64,000 nt of DNA from an uncultured Clostridia bacterium (GTDB taxonomy: Bacteria > Bacillota > Clostridia > TANB77 > CAG-508), in contig CALXAT010000003.1 of the NCBI GenBank assembly GCA_944386365.1, forward strand, positions 12,407-76,406, given 5' to 3'. Numbering within the stretch: the first letter of the stretch is position 1; every line of letters starts with the position of its first letter. This document shows, in pieces, positions 11,414-48,496 of the stretch. A model generated the notes under the pieces. It did not search any database. It was not told where the DNA came from and saw only the letters and a list, made by a program, of their open reading frames with translations. The position numbers and the translations under genes are program-made.

Positions 11414-11508
11414 ATTTATAGGTTGAAAATTGACAAATGTAAATTAATATGTTATTATTTAGTTACAAAATAAATGAACTTTGAATATCGTTAGTGTTCA
11501 AATCATAA

Positions 11509-11543
11509 AAGTATGTGTACCGCGAATGCACATACTTTTTTTT
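11509..11543 (+). terminator. Rho-independent terminator (+ strand) after the phosphorylase gene
   Basis: AAGTATGTG / CACATACTT 9-bp stem, 11-nt loop containing ACCGCGAAT, then a T8 run. Confidence 0.75.
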
Positions 11544-11546
11544 ATG

Positions 11547-11577
11547 CTAAAAAATAGAGCAGACCGCGAATCTGCCC
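11547..11577 (-). terminator. Rho-independent terminator (- strand) closing the feoAB-small ORF unit
   Basis: On the minus strand: GGGCAGA-TTCGCGG-TCTGCTC followed by TATTTTTT. The loop is the complement of the same ACCGCGAAT 9-mer. Confidence 0.65.
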
Positions 11578-11593
11578 TACGACTAAATACAAG

Positions 11594-11734
11594 CTAGTTA
11601 GTCTTAACTTTGTTGTCATTTTGCATTTGTTGTTTTTGCTGCTCTACCTGTTGTTGTAAGAAAAAGTTTTTTTCTTTTTCTTTTATGTACTTGTCAACAA
11701 AATACAAAATTAAATCGCTAGTATTCAAAATCAT
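11594..11734 (-). CDS. Possible small Gln/Lys-rich protein (46 aa) downstream of feoB
   Basis: Hand-translated as MILNTSDLILYFVDKYIKEKEKNFFLQQQVEQQKQQMQNDNKVKTN. GGGAGG lies only 2 nt before the ATG (8 nt before the TTG at codon 3). The ORF is followed by the minus-strand terminator. It is below the ORF-track length cutoff. Confidence 0.3.
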   Translation of the reverse strand: MILNTSDLILYFVDKYIKEKEKNFFLQQQVEQQKQQMQNDNKVKTN

Positions 11735-11910
11735 AACCTCCCTTCCGCCTTTAAGAAAAGGCTGGCCTTCTCTTTGCGTAAGGTTGGTAATATATTACAA
11801 TATTTTACATTAAAAAACAAGCGAACAGTAAAATTTTCCTAAAAAGTTTTAATATAAATACATATTTGCACCAAATCCTTTGATTTTACTAACATATTCT
11901 TTCCTTAAAT

Positions 11911-18834: not shown

Positions 18835-19617
18835 CTATTTTTTAAAATTCATTATAATTTTTTCTTTTAATGTTAGTTTAAAATCTAATGGTTCCTCTAT
18901 TTCAATCTTTTTATTACGTAATACTAATTTAGGATTGGTTGTTGTTAATTCTTCTAATTTTTCTTCCCCTATAATATTGGCAATTTCATCTAATATCTTT
19001 GGTATTCTTGGATAAATTGTATTTTGTCTATGAACGTCAGATCCCAAAAAATGTATCATATTATTCTCAAAGAATTTTTTTACAATCATTTGTGCTTTTT
19101 CACCATATTGCCCTATGATACTTCCATAATTTGCTTGCATTAGAACACCCTTTTCAATTAAATCATATACTAAATCAGGATCTTTTTGTACAAAGCTATA
19201 TCTTTCTGGATGTGCTAATATAGGAACTAATTTATATTGTAACATATCATATATGACATCATATAAATTCATAGGCTCTGCATTTAATGGTAACTCAAAT
19301 AAAACATAACTTGTATCATTAATTGTTGATGCCTTTCTTTTTTCTAACAATTCTATAATATTATCTGTAAAATATATTTCATTTCCTAAATATAAATTGG
19401 TATCTATATTTTTTGTTTTTAAATTTTCTAAAATTGCTTTTACCCATACTTCCCTTTCTGGGACATCTGTTTCATAATAATTTTCCATATAATGTGAAGT
19501 AGAAATAATTGCCTCAAACCCAGCCTTTTCTGCTTCTTTGATTAAATTAAATGTTTCTTCTATACTTCTTGAACCATCATCTATATTTGGTAATATATGT
19601 GAATGAAAATCTATCAT
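18835..19617 (-). CDS. cpsB: Capsule tyrosine-protein phosphatase, PHP family (CpsB/YwqE type)
   Basis: 260 aa. Has the start MIDFHSHILPNIDDGS and later SDVH / AHPERY motifs. Confidence 0.9.
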   Translation of the reverse strand: MIDFHSHILPNIDDGSRSIEETFNLIKEAEKAGFEAIISTSHYMENYYETDVPEREVWVKAILENLKTKNIDTNLYLGNEIYFTDNIIELLEKRKASTINDTSYVLFELPLNAEPMNLYDVIYDMLQYKLVPILAHPERYSFVQKDPDLVYDLIEKGVLMQANYGSIIGQYGEKAQMIVKKFFENNMIHFLGSDVHRQNTIYPRIPKILDEIANIIGEEKLEELTTTNPKLVLRNKKIEIEEPLDFKLTLKEKIIMNFKK

Positions 19618-19761
19618 TTTTTCTTTTGCTCCTTTTTTGTTAATTTATAGCGTCTCTATTAGTATACATTTAACTTAAAAATTTTTCAATATGTATTTAA
19701 AATTTTGTTTAAATTTGACGATTTTTGTAATCTGTTTTTATACTATCCTGTTCTATTTTTA

Positions 19762-19803
19762 CTATAAAAATAGGAACTATCTAAAATAGACAGCTCCTAT
19801 TTA
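19762..19803 (-). terminator. Hairpin between the BY-kinase and phosphatase genes (weak terminator or attenuator)
   Basis: AATAGGAACT (19769-19778) / AGCTCCTATT (19792-19801) with one mismatch; T-rich on the minus strand. Confidence 0.35.
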
Positions 19804-19811
19804 TTTTTATT

Positions 19812-20801
19812 TTATGTTTTATTATTTAAATTCTTTTTTTCTTTGTCCAAATACTCATTAATTTGATTTAATATATCTGTTGTTTTCTCTATAGAAACGC
19901 CACCTTCATCTTTTATATTAATTTTATTTTGTAATGCCTTTGGAACTTCCTCATTTTTTCGTTCCACTTCTCGAGCATTTCTTGTTGACTGAGGATTTTC
20001 TGGTCTTACTCTTTTTTTCATTTCTTCTATTTTATTTTGTCTAGATCCAGAATTTCTAATTAATGGAGAACTTTTGATATTTCTATTTTTTGTACTCGTC
20101 ATAGTGGTAGAACCATAATAATATGATTTTTCATATTTTCTAGCAGATATTGGTATTTTATTTAATACGACTCCAGCAATTTTTCCTCCAACATTTTGAA
20201 TATTCGTAACAATCTTCTTCAAATCATCTTTTTTCGTTTGCTTATATGCTGTAACAATAATCGTAGAATCCACTATTCTTGAAAGAATAATCGCATCTGT
20301 TACTAATTCACATGGTGTTCCATCAATAATAATGATATCACATATTTCTTTTAACCTATCTAATAAATTAACCATTTTGGTTGAAATCAACAATTCTGAT
20401 GGATTTGGTGGGATATTTCCTGCTGGTATTATATATAAATTAGGTACTTGTGTATCTTGTATATAATCTGCTAAATCTTCTGATACTTCTTCACCTTCAT
20501 CCATATTTACGCCTGATAAATAATTAGATAATCCTGGTCTTGGAGCTACATCAAATATGGTATATTGTCTACCTTTTCTCATATCTGCATCAATTAAAAT
20601 AACACGTTTTCCTGCTTGTGCAAAAATAACGGCTAAATTTGATGTTACCCAACTTTTTCCTTCTCCTGGTAAAGTTGATGTTACTAACAATGTTTTTAAC
20701 TTATTGTTTGTATTCATAAACTGTATATTGGTTCTCAATGTTCTAAAAACTTCTGAAACAGGAGACTTCGGATCTCTATGTGCTATTAATTCTTTCTTCA
20801 T
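19812..20801 (-). CDS. cpsD: Capsule BY-kinase (CpsD/YwqD type) with a C-terminal extension of about 100 aa
   Basis: 329 aa. Has Walker A STLPGEGKS, Walker A'/B-like VILIDADMRK and IIIDGTP, and the tyrosine cluster KSYYYG. A Lys/Arg/Asn/Glu-rich tail follows. Confidence 0.88.
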   Translation of the reverse strand: MKKELIAHRDPKSPVSEVFRTLRTNIQFMNTNNKLKTLLVTSTLPGEGKSWVTSNLAVIFAQAGKRVILIDADMRKGRQYTIFDVAPRPGLSNYLSGVNMDEGEEVSEDLADYIQDTQVPNLYIIPAGNIPPNPSELLISTKMVNLLDRLKEICDIIIIDGTPCELVTDAIILSRIVDSTIIVTAYKQTKKDDLKKIVTNIQNVGGKIAGVVLNKIPISARKYEKSYYYGSTTMTSTKNRNIKSSPLIRNSGSRQNKIEEMKKRVRPENPQSTRNAREVERKNEEVPKALQNKINIKDEGGVSIEKTTDILNQINEYLDKEKKNLNNKT

Positions 20802-21532
20802 TATCTTCTACCTCCCCTTTTCTTTAGCTTTTCCATTTCCATATCATATATTGGTATAGAAGCCAATACCGGAACTTTTACATATTTTTCTATATCTTCT
20901 TGTGTTTTTACAGTTGTATCTAGCATATTTGCAATTAATACATACATGACTGCTATAACTACTCCCATAACAGTAAATATTGCTACATCTTTCATGTGAT
21001 TAATATTGGAAGGCTCATCTTCAACGGTTGCTTCATCTACTATGTATACATTGTTTATTTTATAGATTTCTCCCGCTATTTTTTCTTTAAATACATTTGC
21101 TATTTCATTTGCTATTTTCGCTGCATATTCAGGATTTTCATTTGATACGGTTATTTCTATTAATTCTGTATCTTCAACTGATGTAACTTGTACATTTTTT
21201 CTTAACTCGTCCTCATCTACTGGAATTCCAAGATTTGCAATAACTTGTCCTAATATATTCTTGCTTTTTACTAATTCACTATATGTTGCAACCAATTTTG
21301 AGTTAATTGTTAAATCTGTTGTTGTAATTGTTTCTGTTGTTTGATCATCTGGATTACTACTATTTTCTGTTCCTGCCAATACTAGGGTTGTTGATGAACT
21401 ATACATTGGTGTTGTAAATCCTACTGTATATATAATGCCAATAACCATAAATATTAGTATAATTAATATGATTTGAACTTTTTTATTCCAAAACATTTGA
21501 AAAAGTTCTTTTAAGTCTAATTCTTCCATCAT
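20801..21532 (-). CDS. cpsC: Chain-length determinant / BY-kinase modulator (Wzz, CpsC/YwqC type)
   Basis: 243 aa with two TM helices flanking an extracellular Wzz-like domain. There is a 1-nt overlap with cpsD. Confidence 0.85.
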   Translation of the reverse strand: MMEELDLKELFQMFWNKKVQIILIILIFMVIGIIYTVGFTTPMYSSSTTLVLAGTENSSNPDDQTTETITTTDLTINSKLVATYSELVKSKNILGQVIANLGIPVDEDELRKNVQVTSVEDTELIEITVSNENPEYAAKIANEIANVFKEKIAGEIYKINNVYIVDEATVEDEPSNINHMKDVAIFTVMGVVIAVMYVLIANMLDTTVKTQEDIEKYVKVPVLASIPIYDMEMEKLKKRGGRR

Positions 21533-24673: not shown

Positions 24674-24770
24674 TAACAATTCTCCTATCTATAAATTCTC
24701 TATAAAATTATTTTATTACTTCTTCTCGATATTCTAGTATTTCTTTATCATATATCGTTTGTAAATTTAG

Positions 24771-27954: not shown

Positions 27955-29265
27955 TTATTTATTCATATTATTAATTGTTTTTCTTCCTATAGATTCATAT
28001 ATCATTTTTACTTTTTTAACTTCATTTAAATCATAACAATTACGTCCATCAAGTACTATTGGTGTTTTCATTAATTCGCTGTATTTATCTAACTCTATAT
28101 TTTTAATTTCATCCCATTCTGTAAATATGAAACATATATCTGCATTTTTTAACGTTTCCTCTATATTATTACAGTATGTAATTTCTTTAGGATATATTTT
28201 CTTAAAGTTCTTTTCTCCTACTGGATCATATGCTTTAATATTAGCTCCTTCATCTAATAATATTGGCATATTATATAAAGATGGTGCCTCCCTTAAGTCA
28301 TCCGTATTTGGCTTGAAAGTAAGTCCTAATACTGCTATATTTAGTCCTTCAAAATCAGCATAATATTTTCTTGCTTTTTTTATTAATTTTAATTTCTGAT
28401 TGCTATTAACTTCTATTGCTGCTTTAATTGTCTTTAATTCATAATCATTAAAATTAGCTAACCAACTTAGTGCTTTTGTATCCTTTGGGAAACAAGAACC
28501 ACCATATCCAATACCAGCATTTAAGAATTTATTTCCTATTCTTGCATCCATTCCCATACCTTTAGCTACGTCTTGAATATTTGCCCCAACGATTTCACAT
28601 AAATTAGCAATTTCATTCATGTATGAGATCTTTAATGCTAAGAAATCATTTGAAGCATATTTAATCATTTCAGCACTTTCTCTATCTGTTATAACATATG
28701 GTTGTCCAAATCCGTCATATACTTCCTTCATAACTTTTTCTGCAAATTTTGAATTTACACCTATTACTATTCTTTGTGCGTGTAATGTATCTCTTACCGC
28801 TGTTCCTTGTGATAAAAATTCCGGATTAGAAACAACTTCTATTCTTACCTTATTTTTTAGGTTACTATTCAAATATTTTTCTATCTTCTTATTGGTTCCA
28901 ATTGGTACTGTTGATTTTATAACAACTATTACATCTTTTTTTACATTTTCTGCTATTTCTTTTGCAACTTCATATACATATTTTAGATTTGCACTACCAT
29001 CTTTTTTCTCTGGTGTTCCTACTCCTACAAATATAACATCAGCATCTTCATATGCTTTCTTACTATCTAATGTAAATTTAAGTCTTTCTCTATTCTTTTT
29101 CATTAGTTCTTCCAAACCTGGTTCAAATATAGGACTTTTTCCTTCATTTAAAATCTTAATTTTACTTTCATCTACATCTACACATGTAACACTATGTCCC
29201 ACCTCTGATAAACATACTCCCGTTACTAATCCTACATAACCTGTTCCTGCTACTACTATTTTCAT
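27955..29265 (-). CDS. ugd: UDP-glucose 6-dehydrogenase
   Basis: 436 aa. Has MKIVVAGTGYVGLVTG and the catalytic GGSCFPKD. Confidence 0.93.
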   Translation of the reverse strand: MKIVVAGTGYVGLVTGVCLSEVGHSVTCVDVDESKIKILNEGKSPIFEPGLEELMKKNRERLKFTLDSKKAYEDADVIFVGVGTPEKKDGSANLKYVYEVAKEIAENVKKDVIVVIKSTVPIGTNKKIEKYLNSNLKNKVRIEVVSNPEFLSQGTAVRDTLHAQRIVIGVNSKFAEKVMKEVYDGFGQPYVITDRESAEMIKYASNDFLALKISYMNEIANLCEIVGANIQDVAKGMGMDARIGNKFLNAGIGYGGSCFPKDTKALSWLANFNDYELKTIKAAIEVNSNQKLKLIKKARKYYADFEGLNIAVLGLTFKPNTDDLREAPSLYNMPILLDEGANIKAYDPVGEKNFKKIYPKEITYCNNIEETLKNADICFIFTEWDEIKNIELDKYSELMKTPIVLDGRNCYDLNEVKKVKMIYESIGRKTINNMNK

Positions 29266-29266
29266 T

Positions 29267-30682
29267 TTATTCCTCTCCTTTTCTAAATTTTATAACTTTT
29301 ATAACATCTTTAAATGTTAATAATCCATATATTAAAACTCCAAATACAACTTGAAGAATTATACAGCATAAATCATTGCTTATTAAATAATTTATTGGAT
29401 AAATTAATATATACATAATTAATGCGCATAAAAAATATTTTACAAATGTACCCATGTATTGACTTAGTTTTAATTCTTTCCATACAGCTATAGATTGAAC
29501 AAACATAACTGAAAACTCTGCTAAAATCGTTCCTACAACAGCTCCCATTGCATTATATTTAGGAATCAATATACAATTAGTTACCATATTTATAACTGCT
29601 CCTATACTTACCGATATTATATATACCTTGTCTTTTTCTTTCGGTATTAAATATTGTGTTCTTAATACATTTGCAAAAGCTATAAATATAATTGTAACTG
29701 ATAAGTATTTCATTAATATTCCTGTTTCTGCAAATTCAGCTCCAAAATATATTGGTGCAAATTTTTCTCCAATAGCCATAATTCCAGCTGTCATTGGAAA
29801 AGCAACTAACAAAATTAATTTTATAGATTTTCTTATATATTCTTTTGCTTCTTGTTCTTTATCATTTTGCATTAAATTAGACATTCTTGGAAGCATTACT
29901 GTTCCAACTGCCGTAATAATACTTGTCGGTATATTAATTACCTTTTCTCCATTTTCAAATAAAGCTACATACTTTATATCAGCCATATTACCTAACATAA
30001 CTTTATCTATAACCTTATATAAGCTCACTGCAATAACTGGTATAAATAAAATTAAATTTGGTTTTATATGTTGTATCACTTCACTAGCCGTTACTTTTTG
30101 TAGCTTTATTTCTTTTCTTAAAAACCCCCATAAAAATATTTGACTAATAAAATTAGATAAAGACATAATCACCGTATATATATATATATCTTCTGGTTTT
30201 TTTACAAAAATAAATATACTTAAAACAGACAATACTTTTACGATAATATTTCTAGTTACTGTTATTTTAAATTTTTCCAGACCGAAAAAAAACCAATTTA
30301 TATCTATAGCACTTCCCAATAAATATATGATTTGTATTAATGCTATTTCATGATATTTACATAAACCTGAAAATGCATATATGGTATATATTATTATAAC
30401 TATCAATCCTACTAAAATTTGCATCAAATATATAGAACAAAATTTTCTAGAAGCATCATTCTTATCTTCTCTAACTTGTGCAATTGTTCTATTACCGTAA
30501 TTATTTAGTCCTAATAATATAAATAAGGAAAAATAATAAACTACTGAATATGAGTATGAATATTGTCCTAAAACATCTGCTCCCATAACTCTTGAAATAT
30601 AAGGTGCGGTTATTAATGGTAATATGATTATTAATATTTGATAAATTACATTGTATGATATATTTTTCTTTATGTTTTCCAT
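29267..30682 (-). CDS. wzx: Wzx-type oligosaccharide flippase (MOP/PST family)
   Basis: 471 aa, about 12-14 TM helices, polysaccharide biosynthesis protein pattern. Lies 1 nt from ugd. Confidence 0.8.
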   Translation of the reverse strand: MENIKKNISYNVIYQILIIILPLITAPYISRVMGADVLGQYSYSYSVVYYFSLFILLGLNNYGNRTIAQVREDKNDASRKFCSIYLMQILVGLIVIIIYTIYAFSGLCKYHEIALIQIIYLLGSAIDINWFFFGLEKFKITVTRNIIVKVLSVLSIFIFVKKPEDIYIYTVIMSLSNFISQIFLWGFLRKEIKLQKVTASEVIQHIKPNLILFIPVIAVSLYKVIDKVMLGNMADIKYVALFENGEKVINIPTSIITAVGTVMLPRMSNLMQNDKEQEAKEYIRKSIKLILLVAFPMTAGIMAIGEKFAPIYFGAEFAETGILMKYLSVTIIFIAFANVLRTQYLIPKEKDKVYIISVSIGAVINMVTNCILIPKYNAMGAVVGTILAEFSVMFVQSIAVWKELKLSQYMGTFVKYFLCALIMYILIYPINYLISNDLCCIILQVVFGVLIYGLLTFKDVIKVIKFRKGEE

Positions 30683-30696
30683 TCCAATTCCCTTCT

Positions 30697-31704
30697 TTAG
30701 ATTCTTATAAACTGTTTCACTTTAGGTATTTTACTTATTATTATAGAGCAAACTAAACTAATCACAATCGCGCATATCCACATAACAATAGCATATAATG
30801 GACCTTTTTCATGATAAGACAAATTTAGAATATTTATAATCATCGGATGTAAAATATATATTCCCATTATATAATTTGATAAATACTCAATTATTCTTTT
30901 AAACCTATATCCCTCAATTTTTATACTATTTAACAAATTAAAGATAGATATTACCCATAAAATAATTATTAAATTACCATATATATATTCAGAATTTATT
31001 GTAAAGCTTATTTTTACAAATAATTGATATTGATAAACAAAACTAATAATAGTTAATATCGTAGTAATAATAATATTTTTCTTAATAGTTATATTATTTT
31101 GAATATATCTACTATAATATCCACCCATAAAAAAGTATAAAAACCATATCCATATTCTAAAACATTGAGGAATATTTTCTAATATGTTTGTATTATATTT
31201 AACATACATATAATTAAATATAATATCAATGATCACACTAATTGATAATATCAAAATGATTACGTTTCTAAATTTGTTTTTATTATCAAAAATTTTAAAT
31301 TTATAAAGTATTGGTAATATAATATATATTATAATTAATGCCCAAAAAAACCATAAATGTGCCAATGCACCATCTTGTGTAAATGTTCCTAAAAATATAC
31401 TTAATACATTAGTAATTCCTTTTTTTCTTATTGAATCTAATATAACATAAGCAAGTGTCCAAAACACAATAACAAGTAATATGTTTTTTGTTTTATGCAA
31501 CACATATTTGTAATCTATTTTCTCTTTTTTTAATAATAAATATCCATTTACCATTAAAAATAATGGTACTGCACATCTAGAAATATAATATAGTATTGGA
31601 TTATGTATTAGTTCTAATTGATAATTTCTTTGAGTGTGTAAAGCAACTACAAAGAAACAAGCTAATATTTTTATCAAATCAATATTCAAATTTCTCTTGT
31701 TCAT
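30697..31704 (-). CDS. Acyltransferase-3 family membrane O-acetyltransferase
   Basis: 335 aa. The start NIDLIKILACFFVVALH is typical of acyltransferase_3. Polytopic. Confidence 0.8.
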   Translation of the reverse strand: MNKRNLNIDLIKILACFFVVALHTQRNYQLELIHNPILYYISRCAVPLFLMVNGYLLLKKEKIDYKYVLHKTKNILLVIVFWTLAYVILDSIRKKGITNVLSIFLGTFTQDGALAHLWFFWALIIIYIILPILYKFKIFDNKNKFRNVIILILSISVIIDIIFNYMYVKYNTNILENIPQCFRIWIWFLYFFMGGYYSRYIQNNITIKKNIIITTILTIISFVYQYQLFVKISFTINSEYIYGNLIIILWVISIFNLLNSIKIEGYRFKRIIEYLSNYIMGIYILHPMIINILNLSYHEKGPLYAIVMWICAIVISLVCSIIISKIPKVKQFIRI

Positions 31705-32849
31705 AATTCTTCCTTTTCTTCTCTCTTACTAATAATCTTTTTATATAATAAGCTAGCTAATATTATTAAAAGTGTATTAAACTGTATTTTAAATAATGTA
31801 TTTTCAAACATCGCATTAATGCCATATACTAACCATAGCATAATTATACTATATTCCTTTCTTTTATATAGGTCCCTTGTTATTGTAAGCATTATCAAAT
31901 ATATTATAATGTAAGCTATAAGTCCATATCGTAATAAAACAACTAAATAAGAATTATCTAATACCCATGGTTGTTCACTATTAGCTCTAGCTTCTTGCGT
32001 ATATTTCATTTCAATATCATTACCTAATAAATTAATGTCATAATATTCTAAGAATTGAGATGCATATGCTATCCTATTAGATAATAAGTCATTTAATTGT
32101 ACAGCCCATTCCCTATTTTCTCTATAATTATTAGCAAGTAAAATTGAAATAATAGTAAAAATAAGAAATGAATTAATAATAAGTAACTTCATAAATTTAA
32201 AATTTATAATATTAATATGTTTTCTTAATATTATCATTATTAAAAATAATATTCCCAAGCATATTTGACTTGTTCTACTATTAGAAAAATAATTAATTAA
32301 AATTATTGACAATAATACATATACATAATCTACAAATTTTAGTTTTTTAAACCTTAATAAAACAAGGTCTATACATATAACTAATAAATACTGCCCAAAA
32401 TTATTGGGATGTGCAAATCCCATTGAACTACGCATAGTTCCATCTTCTCTATACATAAAATAGTTTTCTGTTAATCCGATGTTATATAACAATATAACAA
32501 CACACATAAATATTATCCTTATAATAACATCTAATTTTATAAATTTCTTAAATTCTATATCTCCAAAAGCAATAGATAAAATAAATACTTTTAGTAATAA
32601 ATTATCTTTACTTTTTATTGTGACTAGAATAAGTATTATTGTTACTATTATTAATCCTATTAAAGTTTTATAATTATATTTATTTATTATAACACTATTT
32701 ATAGCTGCTAATATTAATATCCCTAGTCCTATATTATTTATAATTGATATTAAATTTTCAAATAGTATGACTTTTGAAAACATTTCAGAGAAAATAATCA
32801 TAATATAGCCAATAAAGAACAATAATTCACTTACTTTTACTTTTTTCAT
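31701..32849 (-). CDS. wzy: Wzy-type repeat-unit polymerase (O-antigen polymerase/ligase-like)
   Basis: 382 aa, polytopic, with a large loop (SSMGFAHPNNFGQ). Has 4-nt overlaps with both neighbours. Confidence 0.65.
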   Translation of the reverse strand: MKKVKVSELLFFIGYIMIIFSEMFSKVILFENLISIINNIGLGILILAAINSVIINKYNYKTLIGLIIVTIILILVTIKSKDNLLLKVFILSIAFGDIEFKKFIKLDVIIRIIFMCVVILLYNIGLTENYFMYREDGTMRSSMGFAHPNNFGQYLLVICIDLVLLRFKKLKFVDYVYVLLSIILINYFSNSRTSQICLGILFLIMIILRKHINIINFKFMKLLIINSFLIFTIISILLANNYRENREWAVQLNDLLSNRIAYASQFLEYYDINLLGNDIEMKYTQEARANSEQPWVLDNSYLVVLLRYGLIAYIIIYLIMLTITRDLYKRKEYSIIMLWLVYGINAMFENTLFKIQFNTLLIILASLLYKKIISKREEKEEL

Positions 32850-33847
32850 CTGTTTTTTCCTTTTTTTAATTTTAAATATATATATCTATTCATATTACTT
32901 GTAAACAATTTTTCAAACATTAGTCTGTACTCAAAATTACGAATTATCTTATCCGCTTTTTTACTATAATGTCTTTTTCCCTTTAAATCTATATCCTTAA
33001 AATACTTTTTAAACATATAAAATATGGCTTTTCTATCCCATTTATTATCAAAATATCTTAACTTGTTAAACTGATAATAATAATGTATTGCTTCTGCAAA
33101 AACAATTTTATTTTCATAGATTTCTTTTTGATTTATTTTAATGTAAAAATCTCTTATACACTTAAAAGTATCAATTATTCCAAGTATTTTAAATGTATAT
33201 GTCCTAGAAATACTTCCATCTAATATTCTATATTTATATATATATTGATTTGTTATATATACATTATTACAATAAATTAAATATTTTACAAAAAAATCTA
33301 AATCCTGACCTATTTTTACATGATCAAATAATAATTTTTCTTTTTTAATTTTTTCTAAATTATAAATTTTTGTTCCTGGTTTAGGATCTGCTACACACAA
33401 TTCTAAAATTTCTTCACCGGTTATTATTTTATTTTCTTTATAATCCTGAACTATTGAAAGTATATTTCCATCTTTATCAATTTTTTTATAATTTCCTATA
33501 ACTAAATCGATTTTCTCTTTTTCTATTTTTTCTAAATCTATATTATTTATCATGTTATCTTCTAACTCATCATCTGCATCTAAAAATATTACCCATTTAC
33601 CGTTAGCCTCTTCTATTCCTCTATTTCTAGCATAAGTAGCACCTTTATTCTCCTGATATATATATTTTATCTTATCATTTTTATTTGCATATTTTTTTAA
33701 TATTTGTTCTGTATTATCTGTTGAACCATCATTTATTACGATTATCTCATAATCATTTTGAATCTCTTGCTTTTCAATTGATTCTATACATTTTTGAATA
33801 TATTGATCACAATTATATGCTGGTATTATAAAACTTATTTTTTTCAT
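32846..33847 (-). CDS. Family-2 glycosyltransferase
   Basis: 333 aa. Has ISFIIPAYNC, VINDGSTDNT and LDADDE. Confidence 0.88.
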   Translation of the reverse strand: MKKISFIIPAYNCDQYIQKCIESIEKQEIQNDYEIIVINDGSTDNTEQILKKYANKNDKIKYIYQENKGATYARNRGIEEANGKWVIFLDADDELEDNMINNIDLEKIEKEKIDLVIGNYKKIDKDGNILSIVQDYKENKIITGEEILELCVADPKPGTKIYNLEKIKKEKLLFDHVKIGQDLDFFVKYLIYCNNVYITNQYIYKYRILDGSISRTYTFKILGIIDTFKCIRDFYIKINQKEIYENKIVFAEAIHYYYQFNKLRYFDNKWDRKAIFYMFKKYFKDIDLKGKRHYSKKADKIIRNFEYRLMFEKLFTSNMNRYIYLKLKKGKNR

Positions 33848-33858
33848 TTTTCCTCCCC

Positions 33859-34812
33859 TTATTTTTCTAAACTTGTATTTATATCATAATACTCTTTTGG
33901 AAAAAATTTTTGTTTTAACTTAACGATTATAGCTCTAAACCTATTTATTTTACTATTTTCATATTTTGTCCATTTATCAATAAATTCTTTAAATTCTTTC
34001 TTTTTAAAAATATCATATAATAATTGTAATTGCATTATATGTAAATTATGATAAGCAGGACTTGCTATAGTTTTCTTCAAATCATAGTTAGACCAATATT
34101 TTCTATCATATTCCTTTATTTTTTGAGATAATGTTTCTATTGTTTTTTCTAAAATTTTCCTATACTTTTCTTCTTTTTCAATAAGACAAAAATCATATAA
34201 TCCAAATATAGAAAATATCCAACCATTTAATACTGATAAATTATACTCTGACACATATTCTTGAAATATTACACTATCATCCTGATATAAGCATGTTCCT
34301 CCATCTTTTACATCTTTTATCATAAAATCTATTGCCTTTTTTGCTGCATCAAAATATTTTTTTTCATTTTTTTGTGTATAAGCTCTAAGTAAAACAGAAA
34401 CCCCCTGACTTTGGCACATAGACGATTGTGTTTTGTGAGCCTTATCTCTTAACTTTGCAAAACAATCCCACATTCCGTCATTTTCTTGATTTTCTATTGC
34501 CCAATTTGCAATCTTAAAAAATTTATCTAAATATTCTTCTTTATTTTCCAATAAAAATAAATCATAAAGACCTAATCCATACTGAAAAATTGAAATTGGA
34601 AAATATGCTTTAACTCCTGCTATTGTTGTATTTACAGGTATACCATCTTCATCTAAAACGGTATTATTTGATACTTTATTGGTTAAATCATTATAATATC
34701 CTTTTATTTCTGTTGCTGAATATATTCTTCCTACCCCTTGTTTAACATTAAATGTACTTTTGCCTGTCAGCATATCTTTCCATCTTTTTATCAATTTTAA
34801 TTTATTCTTCAT
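33859..34812 (-). CDS. D-glucuronyl C5-epimerase C-terminal-domain family protein
   Basis: 317 aa. SSMCQSQGVSVLLRAY, LNGWIFSIFGLYD, YWSNYDL and YHNLHIMQLQLL...FKEFIDKWTKY align with my recollection of the human GLCE C-terminal domain (SAMAQGQAISTLVRAY, LNGFMYSLIGLYD, YDL, YHTTHINQLQLL..FKEFVKRWKSY). Confidence 0.75.
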   Translation of the reverse strand: MKNKLKLIKRWKDMLTGKSTFNVKQGVGRIYSATEIKGYYNDLTNKVSNNTVLDEDGIPVNTTIAGVKAYFPISIFQYGLGLYDLFLLENKEEYLDKFFKIANWAIENQENDGMWDCFAKLRDKAHKTQSSMCQSQGVSVLLRAYTQKNEKKYFDAAKKAIDFMIKDVKDGGTCLYQDDSVIFQEYVSEYNLSVLNGWIFSIFGLYDFCLIEKEEKYRKILEKTIETLSQKIKEYDRKYWSNYDLKKTIASPAYHNLHIMQLQLLYDIFKKKEFKEFIDKWTKYENSKINRFRAIIVKLKQKFFPKEYYDINTSLEK

Positions 34813-34836: not shown

Positions 34837-36663
34837 TTATATTTTCCAATTAATTGCATTAAAATCACACATAAATTTATTTAAAACAACACTAGATTTA
34901 TATTCAAATGATTTTTTATAATTATTTTTTGAAATATCTGTTAACTCTTCTGGATGTTTTATAGCATATTTAATAACTTCTTTTAGATTCTCTTTTCCAT
35001 TTTCCTTTTGACTATATATGTATCCATTTTGTTTATCAATTACAATATATTTATTATAACATATATCACTTGCAATAACTGGTAGCCCAGCAGAATACGC
35101 ATCTATGATTGTTGCTGGAAAGCCTTCTCTTTTATGTATACTTGGAAATACATATATATCATAGGCACTTAATATTTTAGTAACTTCTTCATTTTTGGCT
35201 ACTCCCTTATAATTTATATAATCAACGTTTTCTATATTCTTTATATCTTGCTTTGCATTTTCAAATATTGGACCATAAATATCTAATAATAAATTTACGC
35301 CTTCTTCTCTTAATTCTTTCACAACTTGAATAATTGTATCAATCCCTTTTTCTTTGCATACTCTTGCTAAGAAAACTAATTTTAATTCTTTATTCTTTAT
35401 TTTTTCAAAATTTTCTATATTTATATAATTTTCATCTGGTTTAAAATTTTCAAATAATTTTATATTATTTAAATTATATTTTTTTTCAAAATCTTCTTTA
35501 ACTTTTTGAATTTCCACAAAATTTACTTGACTATTTTTCAACACTTCAAGCATTATTTTTTTATTTCTTTTTCCTCTTTGCTCTATTTCATTTAAAATAT
35601 ATCCATTTATTATAACAAAACAATATTGGAACTTCTTATTTAATTTTCTTTTTATATATATTATTGGGCATACAATTTTTCTTCCTCGAGAAGAAACTGC
35701 TATAATTACTTTTCTATTTGTAAAAATCAATGATGTAATAAACTTAATTCTATTAAAAATCGTTGTATCATATGTATTGTATTTCTTCATTTTGTATTCT
35801 TTTTCTAAGTATTTTAGCATATTTTTATTTTTTATTCCAGGACCTTGCAAATCATCTATTGGTCCATAAAAATTAATTATATTTCTGTTTTTTTTTATAT
35901 ATATTCTTTTTTTACATGCATTCCATGCATATCCAATAAAACAAAAACATGATTTTAATAAACTTAGTTTTTCAATTTTTCTGTATAAAAACCATGTTCC
36001 TTTTACAGCTTTAAATTTATTACTAGACAAAGAATTCGAAACAATTCTATAATCTGCTAGAGGTTTATCTATTCCATAACATTTATATCCAGCTTTTAAA
36101 ATTTGACACCATGTAGCAGCATCTTGTCTTCTTCTTATGTTTGGCATAATTAGTAAGTTTTTATTTACTATTTCTGTATCAACCATTACTCCTACTGTTT
36201 GTATGATTGTATTTCTAAGAAAAAATTCATAGTTAATTTCGCTTGGTATAATTACTGTTTTTTTATAATTATTTTCTTCATCAATTTTTTTATAACTGGT
36301 ACATGAGAAACCAACTTTGTGTTCCTCCATAAATTTAATTTGTTCTTCAATCTTCTCTTTTTCCCATAAGTCATCTGCATCTAGATATGCAATATATCTT
36401 CCTGTTGATTGCTGTAAAGCAAAATTTCTTGCTACTGCCGCACCAGAATTTTCTTCTAATTTAAAATATTTAATTCTATTATCTTTTTCCATATACTTTT
36501 TTATAATACTAGCTGAATTATCGGTTGATAAATCATCTACTAATATAAGTTCCCAATTTGGATAAGTTTGATTTTGAACACTTTCTATTGTTTGGCCTAT
36601 GTATTTTTCACAATTATATACAGGAGTTATTATTGAGACTTTCTCATTTAATTCCTCTTTCAT
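34837..36663 (-). CDS. Two-domain glycosyltransferase: N-terminal GT2 fused to C-terminal GT4 (GT-B)
   Basis: 608 aa. The N-terminal domain has VSIITPVYNC, LVDDLSTDNS and YLDADD. The C-terminal domain has LVFLARVCKEKG and FVFPSIHKREGFPATIIDAYSAGLPVIASD. Confidence 0.82.
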   Translation of the reverse strand: MKEELNEKVSIITPVYNCEKYIGQTIESVQNQTYPNWELILVDDLSTDNSASIIKKYMEKDNRIKYFKLEENSGAAVARNFALQQSTGRYIAYLDADDLWEKEKIEEQIKFMEEHKVGFSCTSYKKIDEENNYKKTVIIPSEINYEFFLRNTIIQTVGVMVDTEIVNKNLLIMPNIRRRQDAATWCQILKAGYKCYGIDKPLADYRIVSNSLSSNKFKAVKGTWFLYRKIEKLSLLKSCFCFIGYAWNACKKRIYIKKNRNIINFYGPIDDLQGPGIKNKNMLKYLEKEYKMKKYNTYDTTIFNRIKFITSLIFTNRKVIIAVSSRGRKIVCPIIYIKRKLNKKFQYCFVIINGYILNEIEQRGKRNKKIMLEVLKNSQVNFVEIQKVKEDFEKKYNLNNIKLFENFKPDENYINIENFEKIKNKELKLVFLARVCKEKGIDTIIQVVKELREEGVNLLLDIYGPIFENAKQDIKNIENVDYINYKGVAKNEEVTKILSAYDIYVFPSIHKREGFPATIIDAYSAGLPVIASDICYNKYIVIDKQNGYIYSQKENGKENLKEVIKYAIKHPEELTDISKNNYKKSFEYKSSVVLNKFMCDFNAINWKI

Positions 36664-36666
36664 TTT

Positions 36667-37359
36667 TTACTTTGCTCCTTCTTTTTTTAATACTGATATT
36701 GCTGTTTTAAAAAATATTTTTACATCTAATTTAAAAGACATATTGTCTACATAATATAATTCCATCATCATTCTTTGTTCATACGTAGTATCACTTCTAC
36801 CATTTGCTGCCCAATAACCTGTTAAACCTGGTGTAACACTTAAAAATTTTTCTTTGTTATTTCCATACTTTTCTAGTTCTTCTTCAATGACTGGTCTTGG
36901 ACCAATTATTGATAGTTCTCCTTTTAATATATTAATTAATTGTGGTAATTCATCTAAACTGGTTTTTCTTAAAAATTTTCCTATTTTGGTTATTCTTGGA
37001 TCATTTTCTAGTTTAAAATTTTCTTTAAATTCTTTCATTTGTTCCGGAGTAAATTTCTTAATTAAATCCTCTGCATTTGGAACCATACTTCTAAATTTAT
37101 ATATTCCAATTTCTTTACCATTTTTACCTATTCTTTTATGTTTAAAAAATACTGGACCATCTGATTCTTTTTTTATAAGTATTGCTATTATTAAAAAAAC
37201 AGGTGATAAAACAATTAAACCTATTAATGATAACGAAAAATCCATTATTCTTTTTATGTATTTGTATATATTTATTTCCTTTAATATTTCTCTGGTACCT
37301 TTATTAGGTATAATCACAATATCATTTGTATAATTTAATGATTCATTTCTGACATCCAT
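36667..37359 (-). CDS. Initiating undecaprenyl-phosphate sugar-phosphate transferase (small monotopic PGT, bacterial sugar transferase family)
   Basis: 230 aa. Has KRIMDFSLSLIGLIVLSP, YKFRSM and DELPQLINILKGELSIIGPRP. Confidence 0.9.
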   Translation of the reverse strand: MDVRNESLNYTNDIVIIPNKGTREILKEINIYKYIKRIMDFSLSLIGLIVLSPVFLIIAILIKKESDGPVFFKHKRIGKNGKEIGIYKFRSMVPNAEDLIKKFTPEQMKEFKENFKLENDPRITKIGKFLRKTSLDELPQLINILKGELSIIGPRPVIEEELEKYGNNKEKFLSVTPGLTGYWAANGRSDTTYEQRMMMELYYVDNMSFKLDVKIFFKTAISVLKKEGAK

Positions 37360-37463: not shown

Positions 37464-37961
37464 TCATCTTTCTAATTGTTTTATATGTTTTTTACTATAT
37501 TTATAATATATTTTCTTTACTAAAACTATTAGCAACGCTCCTAATATGACACCTAAGGTATCTATATATACATCTGTTATTTTTGGTGTTCTTCCTGGAG
37601 AAAAGCTTTGGTGAAATTCATCTGATGCTGCATACAACATACCTAATCCAACTGTTATAAGTATTCTCCATTTATTCTTCATTTTATATGTACTTACAAA
37701 TCCCATTAATAATAATCCTACTAATGTATAAATTGAAAAATGTGCTAATTTCCTAATAATTTTTTCTGTTCTATGAGATATTTCATTTTTTTGTTCTTCA
37801 TTCAAATTATTATATATATTCGACTTTTCTAATATTGCCTTTGTTATTCTCTGACTTATTCCACCTGACACTTCTCCGTCTTGACTAGAAAATCCAAATA
37901 TAATAAAAAATGTACCTAATAACAATAGTATTAATATAACCCTCAAAATATTTATTTTCAT
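37464..37961 (-). CDS. VanZ-like family membrane protein
   Basis: 165 aa. Has KLAHFSIYTLVG and SDEFHQSFSPGRTPKITDVYIDTLG. Confidence 0.8.
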   Translation of the reverse strand: MKINILRVILILLLLGTFFIIFGFSSQDGEVSGGISQRITKAILEKSNIYNNLNEEQKNEISHRTEKIIRKLAHFSIYTLVGLLLMGFVSTYKMKNKWRILITVGLGMLYAASDEFHQSFSPGRTPKITDVYIDTLGVILGALLIVLVKKIYYKYSKKHIKQLER

Positions 37962-38079: not shown

Positions 38080-39123
38080 TTAATTTGTGTAACCAGTTTT
38101 TTCTATAATTTCATTACTAATTTCTTTCACTCTATCTGATGGTGTATAATCTGTTTCACCAAAAGCTTCTTCATGTAATTGTTTTACATTACTTTCTAAT
38201 GTAACTGGTACACCATACCATCTGTCCAAAGTAATTCCTTTCGTCTCATATGGCCATCCTATACTATCTGTTACTTTGAAACTTGCTACACTTGGTAATA
38301 ATCCAAAAATATCACTTGCTGTAATATTGGTATATACTTCTGGTAAAATTTGATCAATGATTTGATTCATTTCACTAATACTTTTGGTTTTAAATTTTTC
38401 TGCCATAGCTTCTACCACTGTTCTCATTCTTTCTGCTCTTTTGTAGTCTCCACCTTCTGTATATCGAATTCTTGAATATGCTACTGCTTGTACACCATCT
38501 AATGTTTGTGTTCCAGAAGATGTTATTTTTTCTGTAGATAATCCTGTCACTTTAGATGTTTCATTTATATAACTATTTATATATTGTACCTCTTCTGGCT
38601 GAACATTAATTGTAACGCCACCTAATGCATTAATTGCTTCTGCTACTGCATCAAAGTTTACTGTTACAAACTCTGTAATATTTAAATCAAAGTTTTCATT
38701 TAATGTTTTTAACGCAAGTGGTGCTTCTCCATAAGAATATGCATGTGTTATTTTATCTAAACCATGTCCTTCGATATTTACATATGTATCTCTATATACA
38801 GATATCAATTTTACTTCTTTTGTACTATTATTAATACTTGCAATAATAATACAATCACTTCTATTACCTTTACCTAAACTACTATCTCTACTATCAATTC
38901 CAAATAAAGCAATATTTCTATATCCTGATAAATTTTCTTCAGCTTGCGAAGACACCCCTAGAGTCGTTTCATCTATATCTACTTGTTGCATTTTATTTAA
39001 TTTACTATTAATAAATATGAAAATACTTCCTACAATTAAGACTAAAAGTATCACAAGTATTAATACAACAATTCCAAATATTTTTAATCCTTTTTTCCCT
39101 GTTTTTTCTTTATCTTTACTCAT
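38080..39123 (-). CDS. LytR-CpsA-Psr (LCP) family glycopolymer ligase
   Basis: 347 aa. Has an N-terminal TM helix, then NIALFGIDSRD, RSDCIIIASIN and ISVYRDTYV. Confidence 0.9.
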   Translation of the reverse strand: MSKDKEKTGKKGLKIFGIVVLILVILLVLIVGSIFIFINSKLNKMQQVDIDETTLGVSSQAEENLSGYRNIALFGIDSRDSSLGKGNRSDCIIIASINNSTKEVKLISVYRDTYVNIEGHGLDKITHAYSYGEAPLALKTLNENFDLNITEFVTVNFDAVAEAINALGGVTINVQPEEVQYINSYINETSKVTGLSTEKITSSGTQTLDGVQAVAYSRIRYTEGGDYKRAERMRTVVEAMAEKFKTKSISEMNQIIDQILPEVYTNITASDIFGLLPSVASFKVTDSIGWPYETKGITLDRWYGVPVTLESNVKQLHEEAFGETDYTPSDRVKEISNEIIEKTGYTN

Positions 39124-47249: not shown

Positions 47250-47284
47250 ATGTTCCCTCCTTAAAATTAATATCACATAATTTA

Positions 47285-48463: not shown

Positions 48464-48496
48464 TTTGTTTCTCTCCTCTTTTTTCATTCTGTTTTT

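What the first reader, a model, noticed from the sequence alone, without database searches (positions are those of the whole stretch)
33859..34812. D-glucuronyl C5-epimerase-like gene in a Gram-positive capsule locus next to ugd
The 317-aa protein carries, in order:
- SSMCQSQGVSVLLRAY;
- LNGWIFSIFGLYD;
- YWSNYDL;
- YHNLHIMQLQLL..FKEFIDKWTKY.

These mirror the C-terminal catalytic domain of animal heparan-sulfate glucuronyl C5-epimerase (PF06662) as I recall it. With UDP-glucose 6-dehydrogenase (27955-29265) in the same operon, the polymer probably contains glucuronic acid. That residue could be epimerised at the polymer or oligomer level to iduronic acid. Iduronate-containing bacterial surface polysaccharides are rare, and only a few bacterial members of this family have been studied. 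In a host-associated organism this would be a glycosaminoglycan-mimicking capsule.
Basis: partly seen in the sequence, partly recalled or inferred. Interest (0 to 1): 0.65.

Follow-up and report, generated by a model that had tools for sequence, protein, structure and literature searches.

The report
Minimal glucuronyl C5-epimerase in capsule operon
This gene from an uncultured chicken-gut Clostridia bacterium encodes a stripped-down bacterial relative of the animal enzyme that turns glucuronic acid into iduronic acid. It sits in a surface-polysaccharide operon, and this kind of gene was already catalogued and is widespread, though no Gram-positive member has been tested biochemically.

Summary
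Window 33859-34812 is a 317-aa ORF, but on the minus strand. It carries every quoted motif and hits PF06662 at E 4e-40.

All five key GLCE catalytic residues are present: E185, Y186, N196, Y243 and Y254. They are 58-59/59 conserved in the family. A confident AlphaFold model (pLDDT 93.7) matches only GLCE structures strongly.

The gene lies in a tight Wzy-dependent operon: initiating transferase, GT2-GT4 fusion, epimerase, GT2, Wzy, O-acyltransferase, Wzx, TuaD-type Ugd.

The protein has no signal peptide or TM segment, while Wzy polymerises outside the cell. It therefore most likely epimerises GlcA to IdoA on the undecaprenyl-PP-linked repeat unit before flipping, not on the finished polymer. 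Three findings fit this:
- 34 of 39 non-redundant related loci have a GT4-like gene immediately upstream.
- Natural GT4-, GT2- and Wzx-epimerase fusions exist.
- The related loci carry Ugd of two different lineages.

UDP-GlcA-level epimerisation is the main rival.

"GAG mimicry" is not supported, because the locus predicts an O-acetylated tetrasaccharide repeat.

The class is already known. Raedts 2011 catalogued it, NCBI names homologues, and there are about 3,200 clusters at 50% identity. This is a new member of a known kind and of moderate-to-low interest.

The parts
33859..34812 (-). 317-aa single-domain GLCE-type (PF06662) uronyl C5-epimerase. Predicted cytoplasmic. Catalytic equivalents are E185, Y186, N196, Y243 and Y254.
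34837..36663 (-). 608-aa bifunctional glycosyltransferase: N-terminal GT2 domain (TuaG-like) fused to a C-terminal GT1-family (GT4-like) domain. The GT4-like half is the conserved upstream partner of the epimerase in related loci.
36667..37359 (-). Initiating polyprenyl-phosphate hexose-1-phosphate transferase (Bac_transf, WbaP/EPS_sugtrans-like); start of the tight operon.
32846..33847 (-). GT2 glycosyltransferase, 11 nt downstream of the epimerase; lies in the serotype-variable centre of the locus.
31701..32849 (-). Putative Wzy repeat-unit polymerase: about 8 TM-like segments and a weak Wzy_C hit below the Pfam cutoff.
30697..31704 (-). Acyl_transf_3 membrane O-acyltransferase.
29267..30682 (-). 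Wzx-type flippase (Polysacc_synt / MurJ-like).
27955..29265 (-). UDP-glucose 6-dehydrogenase (TuaD-type); the only sugar-nucleotide precursor gene in the locus and the supplier of UDP-GlcA.
38080..39123 (-). LytR-CpsA-Psr (LCP) family protein, the probable ligase that attaches the polymer to the cell wall.
18835..21532 (-). CpsC (Wzz), CpsD (tyrosine-kinase-type ATPase) and CpsB (phosphatase) regulatory module, separated from the rest of the locus by an inserted defence-like gene pair.

Best explanation
The gene encodes a minimal, single-domain, cytoplasmic member of the GLCE (PF06662) hexuronyl C5-epimerase family. It works inside a Wzx/Wzy-dependent cell-wall/capsular polysaccharide pathway.

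Proposed sequence of events:
1. Ugd makes UDP-GlcA.
2. The initiating transferase and the GT2-GT4 fusion build an undecaprenyl-PP-linked oligosaccharide containing GlcA on the cytoplasmic face of the membrane.
3. The epimerase abstracts the C5 proton of that GlcA and re-protonates from the opposite face, giving L-IdoA. The residues involved are the Tyr254/Glu185 pair with Tyr186, Asn196 and Tyr243, as in human GLCE Tyr578/Glu499.
4. A following transferase and/or Wzx pulls the reversible reaction forward.
5. Wzy polymerises the flipped unit, and LCP attaches the polymer to the wall.

What is shown: family membership, fold, catalytic-residue conservation, lack of export signals, operon structure, and the conserved GT4 partner and natural fusions. 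What is inferred: GlcA as substrate, IdoA as product, and the lipid-linked oligosaccharide as the level of action.
For: Family and active site:
- PF06662 at E 4e-40.
- GLCE is the only PDB sequence hit, and E-Y, N, Y, Y align to human E499/Y500/N510/Y560/Y578 (residue list from PMC13308652 citing Debarnot 2019).
- These residues are 58-59/59 conserved in the family.
- The AF2 model has pLDDT 93.7. The top 8 Foldseek hits are GLCE at E ~2e-11, about 10^7-fold better than the next fold class.

Location and operon:
- No signal peptide or TM segment: maximum KD19 is 1.49 and the N-terminus is hydrophilic.
- The operon is tight, with gaps of -4 to +24 nt, and includes ugd.
- The Ugd is TuaD-type UDP-Glc dehydrogenase, and no other precursor gene is nearby.

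Related loci:
- In 7 of 8 sampled loci the linked dehydrogenase is a UDP-Glc dehydrogenase, drawn from two different lineages.
- 34 of 39 non-redundant loci have a GT1-family (GT4-like) gene immediately upstream.
- Natural fusions of the domain exist with GT4 (both orders), GT2 and a Wzx flippase whose tail is predicted cytoplasmic.
- The block from the initiating transferase through the GT fusion to the epimerase is conserved with L003, while the GT2/Wzy/acyltransferase centre is swapped.

Precedents:
- The archaeal Agl32 (unrelated active site) epimerises GlcA on a lipid-linked glycan before flipping (PMC13308652).
- E. coli O112ab has a 323-aa PF06662 gene in its O-antigen cluster and IdoA in its O-antigen (PMC3068255, PMC7685785).
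Against: - No biochemical or compositional data exist for this organism, which is uncultured.
- No short Gram-positive member of the family has been assayed. The only characterised bacterial enzyme (Bermanella, 448 aa) was tested on polymer.
- GLCE needs substrates of at least 6 sugars in a long cleft (PMC13308652), whereas a repeat-unit intermediate here would have only 2-4 sugars.
- The Wzx fusion is a single metagenomic protein and could be an assembly or gene-calling artefact.
- The E. coli O-antigen literature assumes a UDP-L-IdoA route instead.
- Transcription evidence is weak: short contigs at 90-95% identity from a related strain.
Confidence: 0.6

Rival explanations
1. Nucleotide-sugar-level epimerase. 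The protein converts UDP-alpha-D-GlcA to UDP-beta-L-IdoA in the cytoplasm, and the conserved neighbouring GT4-like transferase is a dedicated IdoA transferase that uses that donor.
For: The protein is cytoplasmic. It is tightly coupled, and sometimes fused, to one glycosyltransferase family, as expected for a donor-maker plus donor-user pair. The E. coli O-antigen review lists a proposed UDP-L-IdoA pathway for O112ab, explicitly without experimental data (PMC7685785).
Against: - Every characterised member of the fold (human, zebrafish, Bermanella) acts on chain-incorporated GlcA bound in a cleft of the alpha-helical domain (PMC13308652, PMC4432689).
- The model is a bare alpha/alpha barrel with no recognisable nucleotide-binding domain.
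- The active site is shared with GLCE well beyond the five catalytic residues: S130, M132, Q134, R143, Y235, D236 and H258 are all conserved with human GLCE.
- The Wzx fusion places the domain at the lipid-linked unit rather than at a soluble pool.
Confidence: 0.17
2. Same chemistry but a different outcome. The enzyme epimerises another hexuronic acid (for example GalA or an N-acetyl-hexosaminuronic acid), or the epimerisation is partial and sub-stoichiometric, so the product is not a regular IdoA-containing repeat.
For: In Sporomusa and other Negativicutes loci the gene adjacent to the epimerase is a UDP-ManNAc-dehydrogenase-like enzyme (411 bits against a 459-bit cutoff) rather than Ugd. This suggests substrate diversity within the family. 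GLCE reactions are reversible. C. perfringens Hobbs 10 polysaccharide was estimated at only about 7% IdoA (PMC3068255).
Against: In this locus the only precursor gene is a UDP-Glc 6-dehydrogenase. There is no UDP-GlcA 4-epimerase and no HexNAc dehydrogenase in or beside the locus. Close relatives at 57-65% identity also carry Ugd.
Confidence: 0.13
3. Not an epimerase. The protein is a six-hairpin glycan-cleaving enzyme (a lyase, or a GH88-like unsaturated glucuronyl hydrolase) that trims or recycles the uronic-acid polymer.
For: There is a weak GH88 Pfam hit (25.7 bits, just under the 26.6 cutoff) and a trace pectate-lyase similarity. The alpha/alpha-barrel fold is shared with lyases and hydrolases. 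Lyases use the same C5 proton abstraction.
Against: GLCE matches are about 10^7-fold better than any hydrolase or lyase in Foldseek E-value. The GLCE-specific catalytic set is complete and invariant. The protein is cytoplasmic, and it sits mid-operon between, or is fused to, biosynthetic glycosyltransferases.
Confidence: 0.04
4. Polymer-level epimerase acting on the finished capsule outside the cell, as in animal GAG or alginate maturation.
For: GLCE and the Bermanella enzyme act at polymer level. Extracellular family members do exist: P0276 has a signal peptide, three CWB2 cell-wall-binding repeats and the epimerase domain.
Against: The window protein has no signal peptide, TM segment or wall-binding domain. 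In a Wzx/Wzy pathway the polymer is formed only on the outer face of the membrane (established knowledge of the pathway).
Confidence: 0.05

Closest known systems
[quoted passage not shown]
   Same: The PF06662 domain and the alpha-helical barrel fold (rmsd 2.3-3.2 A over about 210-220 columns). All five key catalytic residues are shared (E499/Y500/N510/Y560/Y578 correspond to E185/Y186/N196/Y243/Y254), as are further active-site residues such as the SxMxQ motif, R143, Y235-D236 and H258.
   Different: The protein is 317 aa against 617 aa. It lacks the N-terminal beta-hairpin dimerisation domain and the central beta-sandwich; the alignment jumps over roughly residues 230-384 of the human protein. 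It is cytoplasmic rather than Golgi-lumenal. Its substrate cannot be N-sulfated heparosan, and it probably acts on a short lipid-linked oligosaccharide. Identity is 26-28%.
Short prokaryotic PF06662 proteins in CPS/O-antigen clusters catalogued by Raedts et al. 2011 (T. tengcongensis 312 aa, B. cereus 307 aa, Ruminococcus sp. 302 aa, E. coli O112ab / S. boydii 15 323 aa)
   Same: Same size class and single-domain architecture, embedded among glycosyltransferases in type-specific surface-polysaccharide clusters. For O112ab the O-antigen is known to contain L-IdoA (PMC3068255, PMC7685785).
   Different: None of these has been assayed. I could not align the window protein to those exact sequences because they were not retrievable here. 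The window's version follows a GT2-GT4 fusion in a Gram-positive LCP/CpsBCD locus.
Bermanella marisrubri RED65_08024 (the only biochemically characterised bacterial GLCE homologue; Raedts 2013)
   Same: A bacterial PF06662 protein that converts GlcA to IdoA in vitro. Sequence alignment suggests a GLCE-like mechanism (PMC13308652, PMC4432689).
   Different: It is 448 aa from a marine gammaproteobacterium and was assayed on O-desulfated heparin/HS polymer. Its native substrate is unknown.
Halobacterium salinarum Agl32 (archaeal GlcA C5-epimerase of N-glycosylation)
   Same: It works the way proposed here: a single alpha-helical-domain enzyme that epimerises GlcA to IdoA on a short lipid-linked glycan before translocation, and it needs flanking sugars (PMC13308652).
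   Different: It is not a family member. It lacks the GLCE catalytic residues and is structurally closer to AGE-superfamily enzymes (PMC13308652). The window protein has the full GLCE catalytic set.
Alginate mannuronan C5-epimerases (AlgG, AlgE1-7) and dermatan-sulfate epimerase DSepi1
   Same: The same type of reaction: C5 epimerisation of a chain-incorporated hexuronic acid.
   Different: They have unrelated folds (right-handed beta-helix; DSepi1 toroid plus beta-sandwich), act outside the cytoplasm at polymer level, and share no sequence similarity (PMC3068255, PMC13308652).

Membership tests
PF06662 / GLCE-type D-glucuronyl C5-epimerase family | Significant match to the C5-epim_C profile above the gathering threshold | tested here: met
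   E 4.2e-40, 137.7 bits against a cutoff of 23.3, profile positions 26-188 of 188
PF06662 / GLCE-type D-glucuronyl C5-epimerase family | Alpha-helical barrel catalytic-domain fold as in GLCE crystal structures | tested here: met
   AF2 model with pLDDT 93.7 and pTM 0.92. The Foldseek top 8 hits are all GLCE (E ~2e-11, rmsd 2.3-3.2 A); the next fold class is at E ~1e-4.
PF06662 / GLCE-type D-glucuronyl C5-epimerase family | Catalytic residues E499, Y500, N510, Y560 and Y578 (human numbering; PMC13308652 citing Debarnot 2019) | tested here: met
   They align to E185, Y186, N196, Y243 and Y254 (the Y578F mutant 6i01 marks the column). Conservation among 59 homologues is 58, 58, 59, 59 and 59.
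PF06662 / GLCE-type D-glucuronyl C5-epimerase family | Three-domain animal architecture (N-terminal beta-hairpin, central beta-sandwich, C-terminal helical domain) forming a dimer | tested here: not met
   The protein is 317 aa. The model is helical with only short strands, and the alignment to human GLCE skips the beta-sandwich region. This feature defines animal GLCE, not the Pfam family, so the protein is a minimal-core member.
PF06662 / GLCE-type D-glucuronyl C5-epimerase family | Demonstrated GlcA to IdoA conversion | not testable with these tools
   This needs an enzyme assay or polymer composition analysis. The organism is uncultured.
Prokaryotic short PF06662 epimerases of surface-polysaccharide clusters (Raedts 2011 class) | Single-domain protein of about 300-325 aa encoded among glycosyltransferases in a type-specific CPS/O-antigen cluster | tested here: met
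   The 317-aa protein lies between a GT2-GT4 fusion and a GT2 in a Wzx/Wzy locus. Most of the best 150 family representatives are 290-340 aa. The centre of the locus is swapped relative to L003.
Prokaryotic short PF06662 epimerases of surface-polysaccharide clusters (Raedts 2011 class) | Genetic linkage to UDP-GlcA supply | tested here: met
   A TuaD-type Ugd is in the same operon. A UDP-Glc dehydrogenase of either of two lineages is present in 7 of 8 sampled related loci.
Wzx/Wzy-dependent Gram-positive capsule / wall-polysaccharide locus | Initiating phosphoglycosyl transferase, Wzx flippase, LCP ligase and the CpsB/C/D module | tested here: met
   Bac_transf E 3e-67, Polysacc_synt E 8e-33, LytR_cpsA_psr E 1e-36, CpsB E 4e-60, Wzz E 1e-17, CpsD-type ATPase
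Wzx/Wzy-dependent Gram-positive capsule / wall-polysaccharide locus | Wzy polymerase | tested here: inconclusive
   The Wzy_C hit scores 25.2 bits, below the 31.7 cutoff. The protein has about 8 TM-like segments over 382 aa and sits between a GT and the acyltransferase. There is no NCBIfam hit.
Bacterial glycosaminoglycan-like capsule (heparosan / chondroitin / hyaluronan type) | Disaccharide-repeat polymer made by a processive synthase and exported by an ABC or synthase-dependent route | tested here: not met
   The locus has an initiating transferase plus three separate GT domains, Wzx, Wzy and an O-acyltransferase. That predicts a block-polymerised, O-acetylated tetrasaccharide repeat.
GH88 unsaturated glucuronyl hydrolase | Pfam PF07470 match above the gathering threshold | tested here: not met
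   25.7 bits against a 26.6 cutoff. GH88 structures match only at Foldseek E ~1e-3.

The most novel reading that the evidence does not exclude
The cytoplasmic minimal GLCE-type epimerase and its almost invariably adjacent (sometimes fused) GT4-like transferase form a portable two-gene module. The module installs L-iduronic acid into undecaprenyl-PP-linked repeat units before flipping. Because it is present in hundreds of gut Firmicutes and Actinobacteria, including most Collinsella genomes sampled, IdoA would be a common component of gut-commensal surface glycans rather than a rarity. That would give a bacterial oligosaccharide-level counterpart of animal GAG epimerisation and a source of small soluble epimerases for chemo-enzymatic work.
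Probability: 0.45. Interest if true: 0.55.

Novelty: new member of a known kind. Interest (0 to 1): 0.3.

Why it matters
L-iduronic acid is regarded as a hallmark of animal glycosaminoglycans and as very rare in bacteria. Only one bacterial C5-epimerase has been assayed, and its native substrate is unknown.

This locus offers a clean, compact test case: one Ugd, one epimerase and a small set of transferases. It could settle where and on what substrate the short bacterial enzymes act.

The conserved GT4-epimerase pairing and the fusions found here point to action on lipid-linked intermediates. They also suggest that IdoA-containing surface polymers may be common in gut commensals, which would matter for host lectin and GAG-binding-protein interactions and for phage receptors.

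Small, soluble, single-domain epimerases are also attractive tools for chemo-enzymatic synthesis of IdoA-containing oligosaccharides.

The gene itself is an expected, already annotatable member of a catalogued class, so the finding is useful but not surprising.

Tried and rejected
- The sigma-70 promoter scan was uninformative in this 27%-GC DNA: 150 sites found against 147 expected. Only the terminator-like hairpin after the dockerin gene was used.
- The primary papers (Raedts 2013 PMC3750135, Debarnot 2019 PMC6452739, Qin 2015 PMC4335203) are not held. Catalytic-residue assignments therefore rest on secondary citation in PMC13308652 and PMC12834895, plus the Y578F mutant sequence in PDB 6i01.
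- I could not retrieve the E. coli O112ab, Bermanella or C. perfringens sequences, so no direct comparison with them was made.
- The V. cholerae VPS paper (PMC3901696) cites GLCE only in its reference list and gave nothing on a PF06662 role.
- I tested the hydrophobic moment of the terminal helices as a sign of membrane association. They are strongly basic (+5 and +6, conserved) but no more amphipathic than the barrel helices, so I give this little weight.
- Metatranscriptome mapping gave only short contigs at 90-95% identity from a related strain. This is weak expression evidence, and DNA carry-over cannot be excluded.
- NCBIfam has no model that captures this protein.
- I considered and rejected C. 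perfringens as the source organism. The only matches are uncultured Clostridia MAGs.
Full report
**1. Observation**

Window 33859-34812 holds a 317-aa ATG-started ORF, but on the minus strand; the plus-strand reading is full of stops. A GGAGG-like ribosome-binding site (AGAGAGGAAG) precedes the start codon.

The Pfam model PF06662 (C5-epim_C) matches at E 4.2e-40, 137.7 bits against a cutoff of 23.3, over residues 129-283. NCBIfam has no specific model for the protein. The only sequence-level matches in the PDB are human and zebrafish GLCE, at E 2e-23 to 2e-19.

**2. Active site and fold**

The key GLCE catalytic residues are E499, Y500, N510, Y560 and Y578 (PMC13308652, citing Debarnot 2019; mechanism summary in PMC12834895). 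In the HMMER alignment they correspond to E185, Y186, N196, Y243 and Y254. The PDB entry 6i01 carries F at the Y578 column, which pins that position. Among 59 homologues spanning 46-83% identity, these five positions are conserved 58, 58, 59, 59 and 59 times.

Other residues shared with human GLCE are also invariant in the family: S130, M132, Q134, R143, Y235-D236, H258 and Q77-Y78.

An AlphaFold2 model built on that alignment is confident, with mean pLDDT 93.7 and pTM 0.92. Its eight best Foldseek matches in the PDB are all GLCE chains (E ~2e-11, rmsd 2.3-3.2 A over about 210-220 columns). The next class (GH76, cellobiose 2-epimerase, GH88, lyases) appears only at E ~1e-4.

The protein equals the GLCE helical domain alone. 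A weak collinear N-terminal match (query 38-90 to human about 179-230) and the main match (query 76-285 to human about 384-609) bracket the human beta-sandwich, which is absent here. The N-terminal beta-hairpin dimerisation domain is absent too.

**3. Genomic context**

All genes below are on the minus strand. In transcription order they are:
- LCP (38080-39123)
- VanZ-like (37464-37961)
- Bac_transf initiating transferase (36667-37359)
- a 608-aa fusion of a TuaG-like GT2 domain with a GT1-family domain (34837-36663)
- the epimerase (33859-34812)
- GT2 (32846-33847)
- a weak Wzy candidate with about 8 TM-like segments (31701-32849)
- Acyl_transf_3 (30697-31704)
- Wzx (29267-30682)
- Ugd (27955-29265)
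- an 880-aa dockerin-bearing protein (25207-27849)

From the initiating transferase to ugd the intergenic gaps are only -4 to +24 nt. A terminator-like hairpin follows the dockerin gene. CpsC, CpsD and CpsB lie further downstream, beyond an inserted defence-like gene pair.

The dehydrogenase scores 549 bits on the TuaD UDP-glucose 6-dehydrogenase model, against at most 200 bits on UDP-ManNAc dehydrogenase models. No other sugar-nucleotide gene lies in or beside the locus. GlcA is therefore the only locus-specific sugar.

One initiating transferase plus three GT domains predicts a tetrasaccharide repeat that is O-acetylated and Wzy-polymerised. That is not a GAG-like disaccharide polymer.

**4. 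Source organism**

The window is identical to chicken-gut metagenome contigs. It is closest to an uncultured Clostridia MAG from chicken, L003, where the epimerase is 91% identical. Window GC content is 27%.

**5. Where the enzyme acts**

The protein has no signal peptide and no TM segment. Its maximum 19-residue hydropathy is 1.49, and that peak falls in the buried VLNGWIFSIFGLYD helix; the N-terminus is hydrophilic and basic. In a Wzx/Wzy pathway the repeat unit is built on undecaprenyl-PP at the cytoplasmic face and is polymerised only after flipping (established knowledge of the pathway). A cytoplasmic enzyme therefore cannot see the polymer. It can see UDP-GlcA or the lipid-linked oligosaccharide.

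Comparative evidence favours the lipid-linked oligosaccharide:

- (i) Among 39 non-redundant related loci from reference genomes, 34 have a homologue of the GT1-family (GT4-like) half of the window's fusion immediately upstream on the same strand, usually with overlapping or near-touching stop and start codons. The genomes include Clostridia, Bacilli, Lachnospiraceae, Collinsella, Bifidobacterium, Olsenella, Sporomusa and a Bacteroides MAG. About half of the loci have a second GT4 immediately downstream.
- (ii) Natural fusions of the epimerase domain exist with GT4 in both orders (P0149; P0183, P0238, P0207), with GT2 (P0271), and with a Wzx-type flippase (P0227). In P0227 the final TM segment is followed by a strongly basic linker, which places the epimerase domain on the cytoplasmic side.
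- (iii) Relative to L003, the block from LCP to the epimerase (84.5% DNA identity) and the block from Wzx to the dockerin gene (81.8%) are conserved, while the GT2/Wzy/acyltransferase centre is replaced. The epimerase therefore belongs with the conserved early assembly steps.
- (iv) The fold offers a carbohydrate cleft and no nucleotide-binding domain. Every characterised member acts on chain-incorporated GlcA (PMC13308652, PMC4432689).
- (v) The archaeal Agl32, although it has a different active site, sets a precedent for GlcA-to-IdoA conversion on a lipid-linked tetrasaccharide before translocation (PMC13308652).

The family also includes clearly extracellular members. P0276 has a signal peptide, three CWB2 cell-wall-binding repeats and the epimerase domain, and presumably acts at polymer level. 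The window protein is not of that type.

**6. Substrate**

In 7 of 8 sampled related loci the linked dehydrogenase is a UDP-glucose 6-dehydrogenase. These belong to two lineages that are only about 30% identical to each other, TuaD-type and E. coli PRK15057-type. Recruitment of non-orthologous Ugd genes argues for a functional link to UDP-GlcA rather than for inherited synteny.

In Sporomusa and other Negativicutes, the gene directly adjacent to the epimerase is UDP-ManNAc-dehydrogenase-like instead. Some subclades may therefore act on a different uronic acid.

**7. Rivals**

- The UDP-L-IdoA route is assumed for E. coli O112ab, without experimental data (PMC7685785). It stays open at about 0.17.
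- A different or partial epimerisation outcome: about 0.13.
- Polymer-level extracellular action: about 0.05.
- A lyase or hydrolase role: about 0.04. The GH88 hit is below threshold.

**8. What is already known**

Raedts et al. 2011 (PMC3068255) screened prokaryotic genomes and listed exactly this kind of protein:
- Thermoanaerobacter tengcongensis, 312 aa
- Bacillus cereus, 307 aa
- Ruminococcus sp., 302 aa
- Bacteroides sp., 305 aa
- E. coli O112ab and S. boydii 15, 323 aa; their O-antigen contains L-IdoA

They noted that the genes are embedded among glycosyltransferases and proposed roles in type-specific CPS and O-antigens. They also recalled that IdoA was first found in a prokaryote in a Clostridium perfringens Hobbs 10 polysaccharide.

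NCBI already names homologues 'D-glucuronyl C5-epimerase family protein'. The family is large. An exhaustive HMMER search against 1.84 billion representatives found 3,211 clusters at 50% identity at E <= 1e-3 and 1,715 at E <= 1e-10, and most are single-domain proteins of 290-340 aa.

As of 2026, the only bacterial enzyme with demonstrated activity is still Bermanella marisrubri RED65_08024 (PMC13308652).

**9. Verdict**

It needs three corrections:
- The gene is on the minus strand.
- The level of action is probably the lipid-linked repeat unit, not the polymer.
- The GAG-mimicry claim is not supported.

This is a new member of a known, catalogued kind. What this analysis adds is the cytoplasmic-topology argument, the conserved GT4-epimerase pairing, and the Rosetta-stone fusions. 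Expression evidence is weak: short metatranscriptome contigs at 90-95% identity from a related strain. Interest is moderate-to-low, at 0.3.

Noticed in passing
window 21745-24679 (-): A 646-aa AAA_15/AAA_21 ATPase and a 335-aa HNH protein overlap by 14 nt. Their best PADLOC matches are candidate defence system PDC-M62 A (E 3e-72) and B (E 1e-53), with weaker matches to Septu PtuA/PtuB. The pair, with a small HTH gene called upstream of it in the identical contig L001, sits inside the polysaccharide locus and separates ugd and the dockerin gene from cpsC/D/B.
   Followed up: partly
window 25207-27849 (-): An 880-aa protein is co-directional with and immediately downstream of ugd, and a terminator-like hairpin follows it. 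It has an N-terminal signal/anchor, a stretch (392-479) weakly similar to a phage tailspike (8x8m, E 2e-4), which suggests a beta-helix glycan-active domain, and a C-terminal type I dockerin (E 6e-8). It is 78% conserved in L003. It may be a secreted depolymerase or modifying enzyme for the polymer; its function is unknown.
   Followed up: partly
L020, L022, L077, L082 (Sporomusa and other Negativicutes), about 10950-12250 in each locus: In these loci the gene directly downstream of the epimerase homologue is UDP-ManNAc-dehydrogenase-like (411 bits against a 459-bit cutoff in L020) rather than a UDP-glucose dehydrogenase. This hints at a subclade acting on ManNAcA, with a possible L-GulNAcA product.
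   Followed up: partly
window 30644-33835 versus L003 10973-15756: There is a serotype-like cassette swap. The flanks are 82-85% identical at DNA level to the closest reference MAG, but the central GT2/Wzy/acyltransferase segment is replaced by unrelated sequence of a different length.
   Followed up: yes
proteins P0276, P0192, P0268, P0227: Other architectures exist in the family: signal peptide plus three CWB2 repeats plus epimerase (an extracellular, wall-bound form); tandem double epimerase domains (676 and 1150 aa); and a Wzx-epimerase fusion.
   Followed up: partly
window 45948-49708 (-): Three tandem paralogues (442, 400 and 403 aa) of PcsB-like peptidoglycan hydrolases, each with a coiled-coil CC_PcsB domain and a Peptidase_M23 domain, lie next to a CtpB-like S41 protease at 44606-45823.
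   Followed up: no
L004, L009, L010 (gene immediately downstream of the epimerase): In the Clostridium sp. CAG:389 group the downstream neighbour is a DUF4422 protein (E 5e-67) instead of a GT4 or GT2.
   Followed up: no
window 33859-34812, residues 2-16 and 288-303 of the protein: Both terminal helices are strongly basic (net +5 and +6), and this is conserved across the family (median +5 and +6, with K298/Q301/K302 invariant). These segments have no counterpart in the GLCE alignment. They might contact the membrane or the pyrophosphate-lipid; this was not tested.
   Followed up: partly
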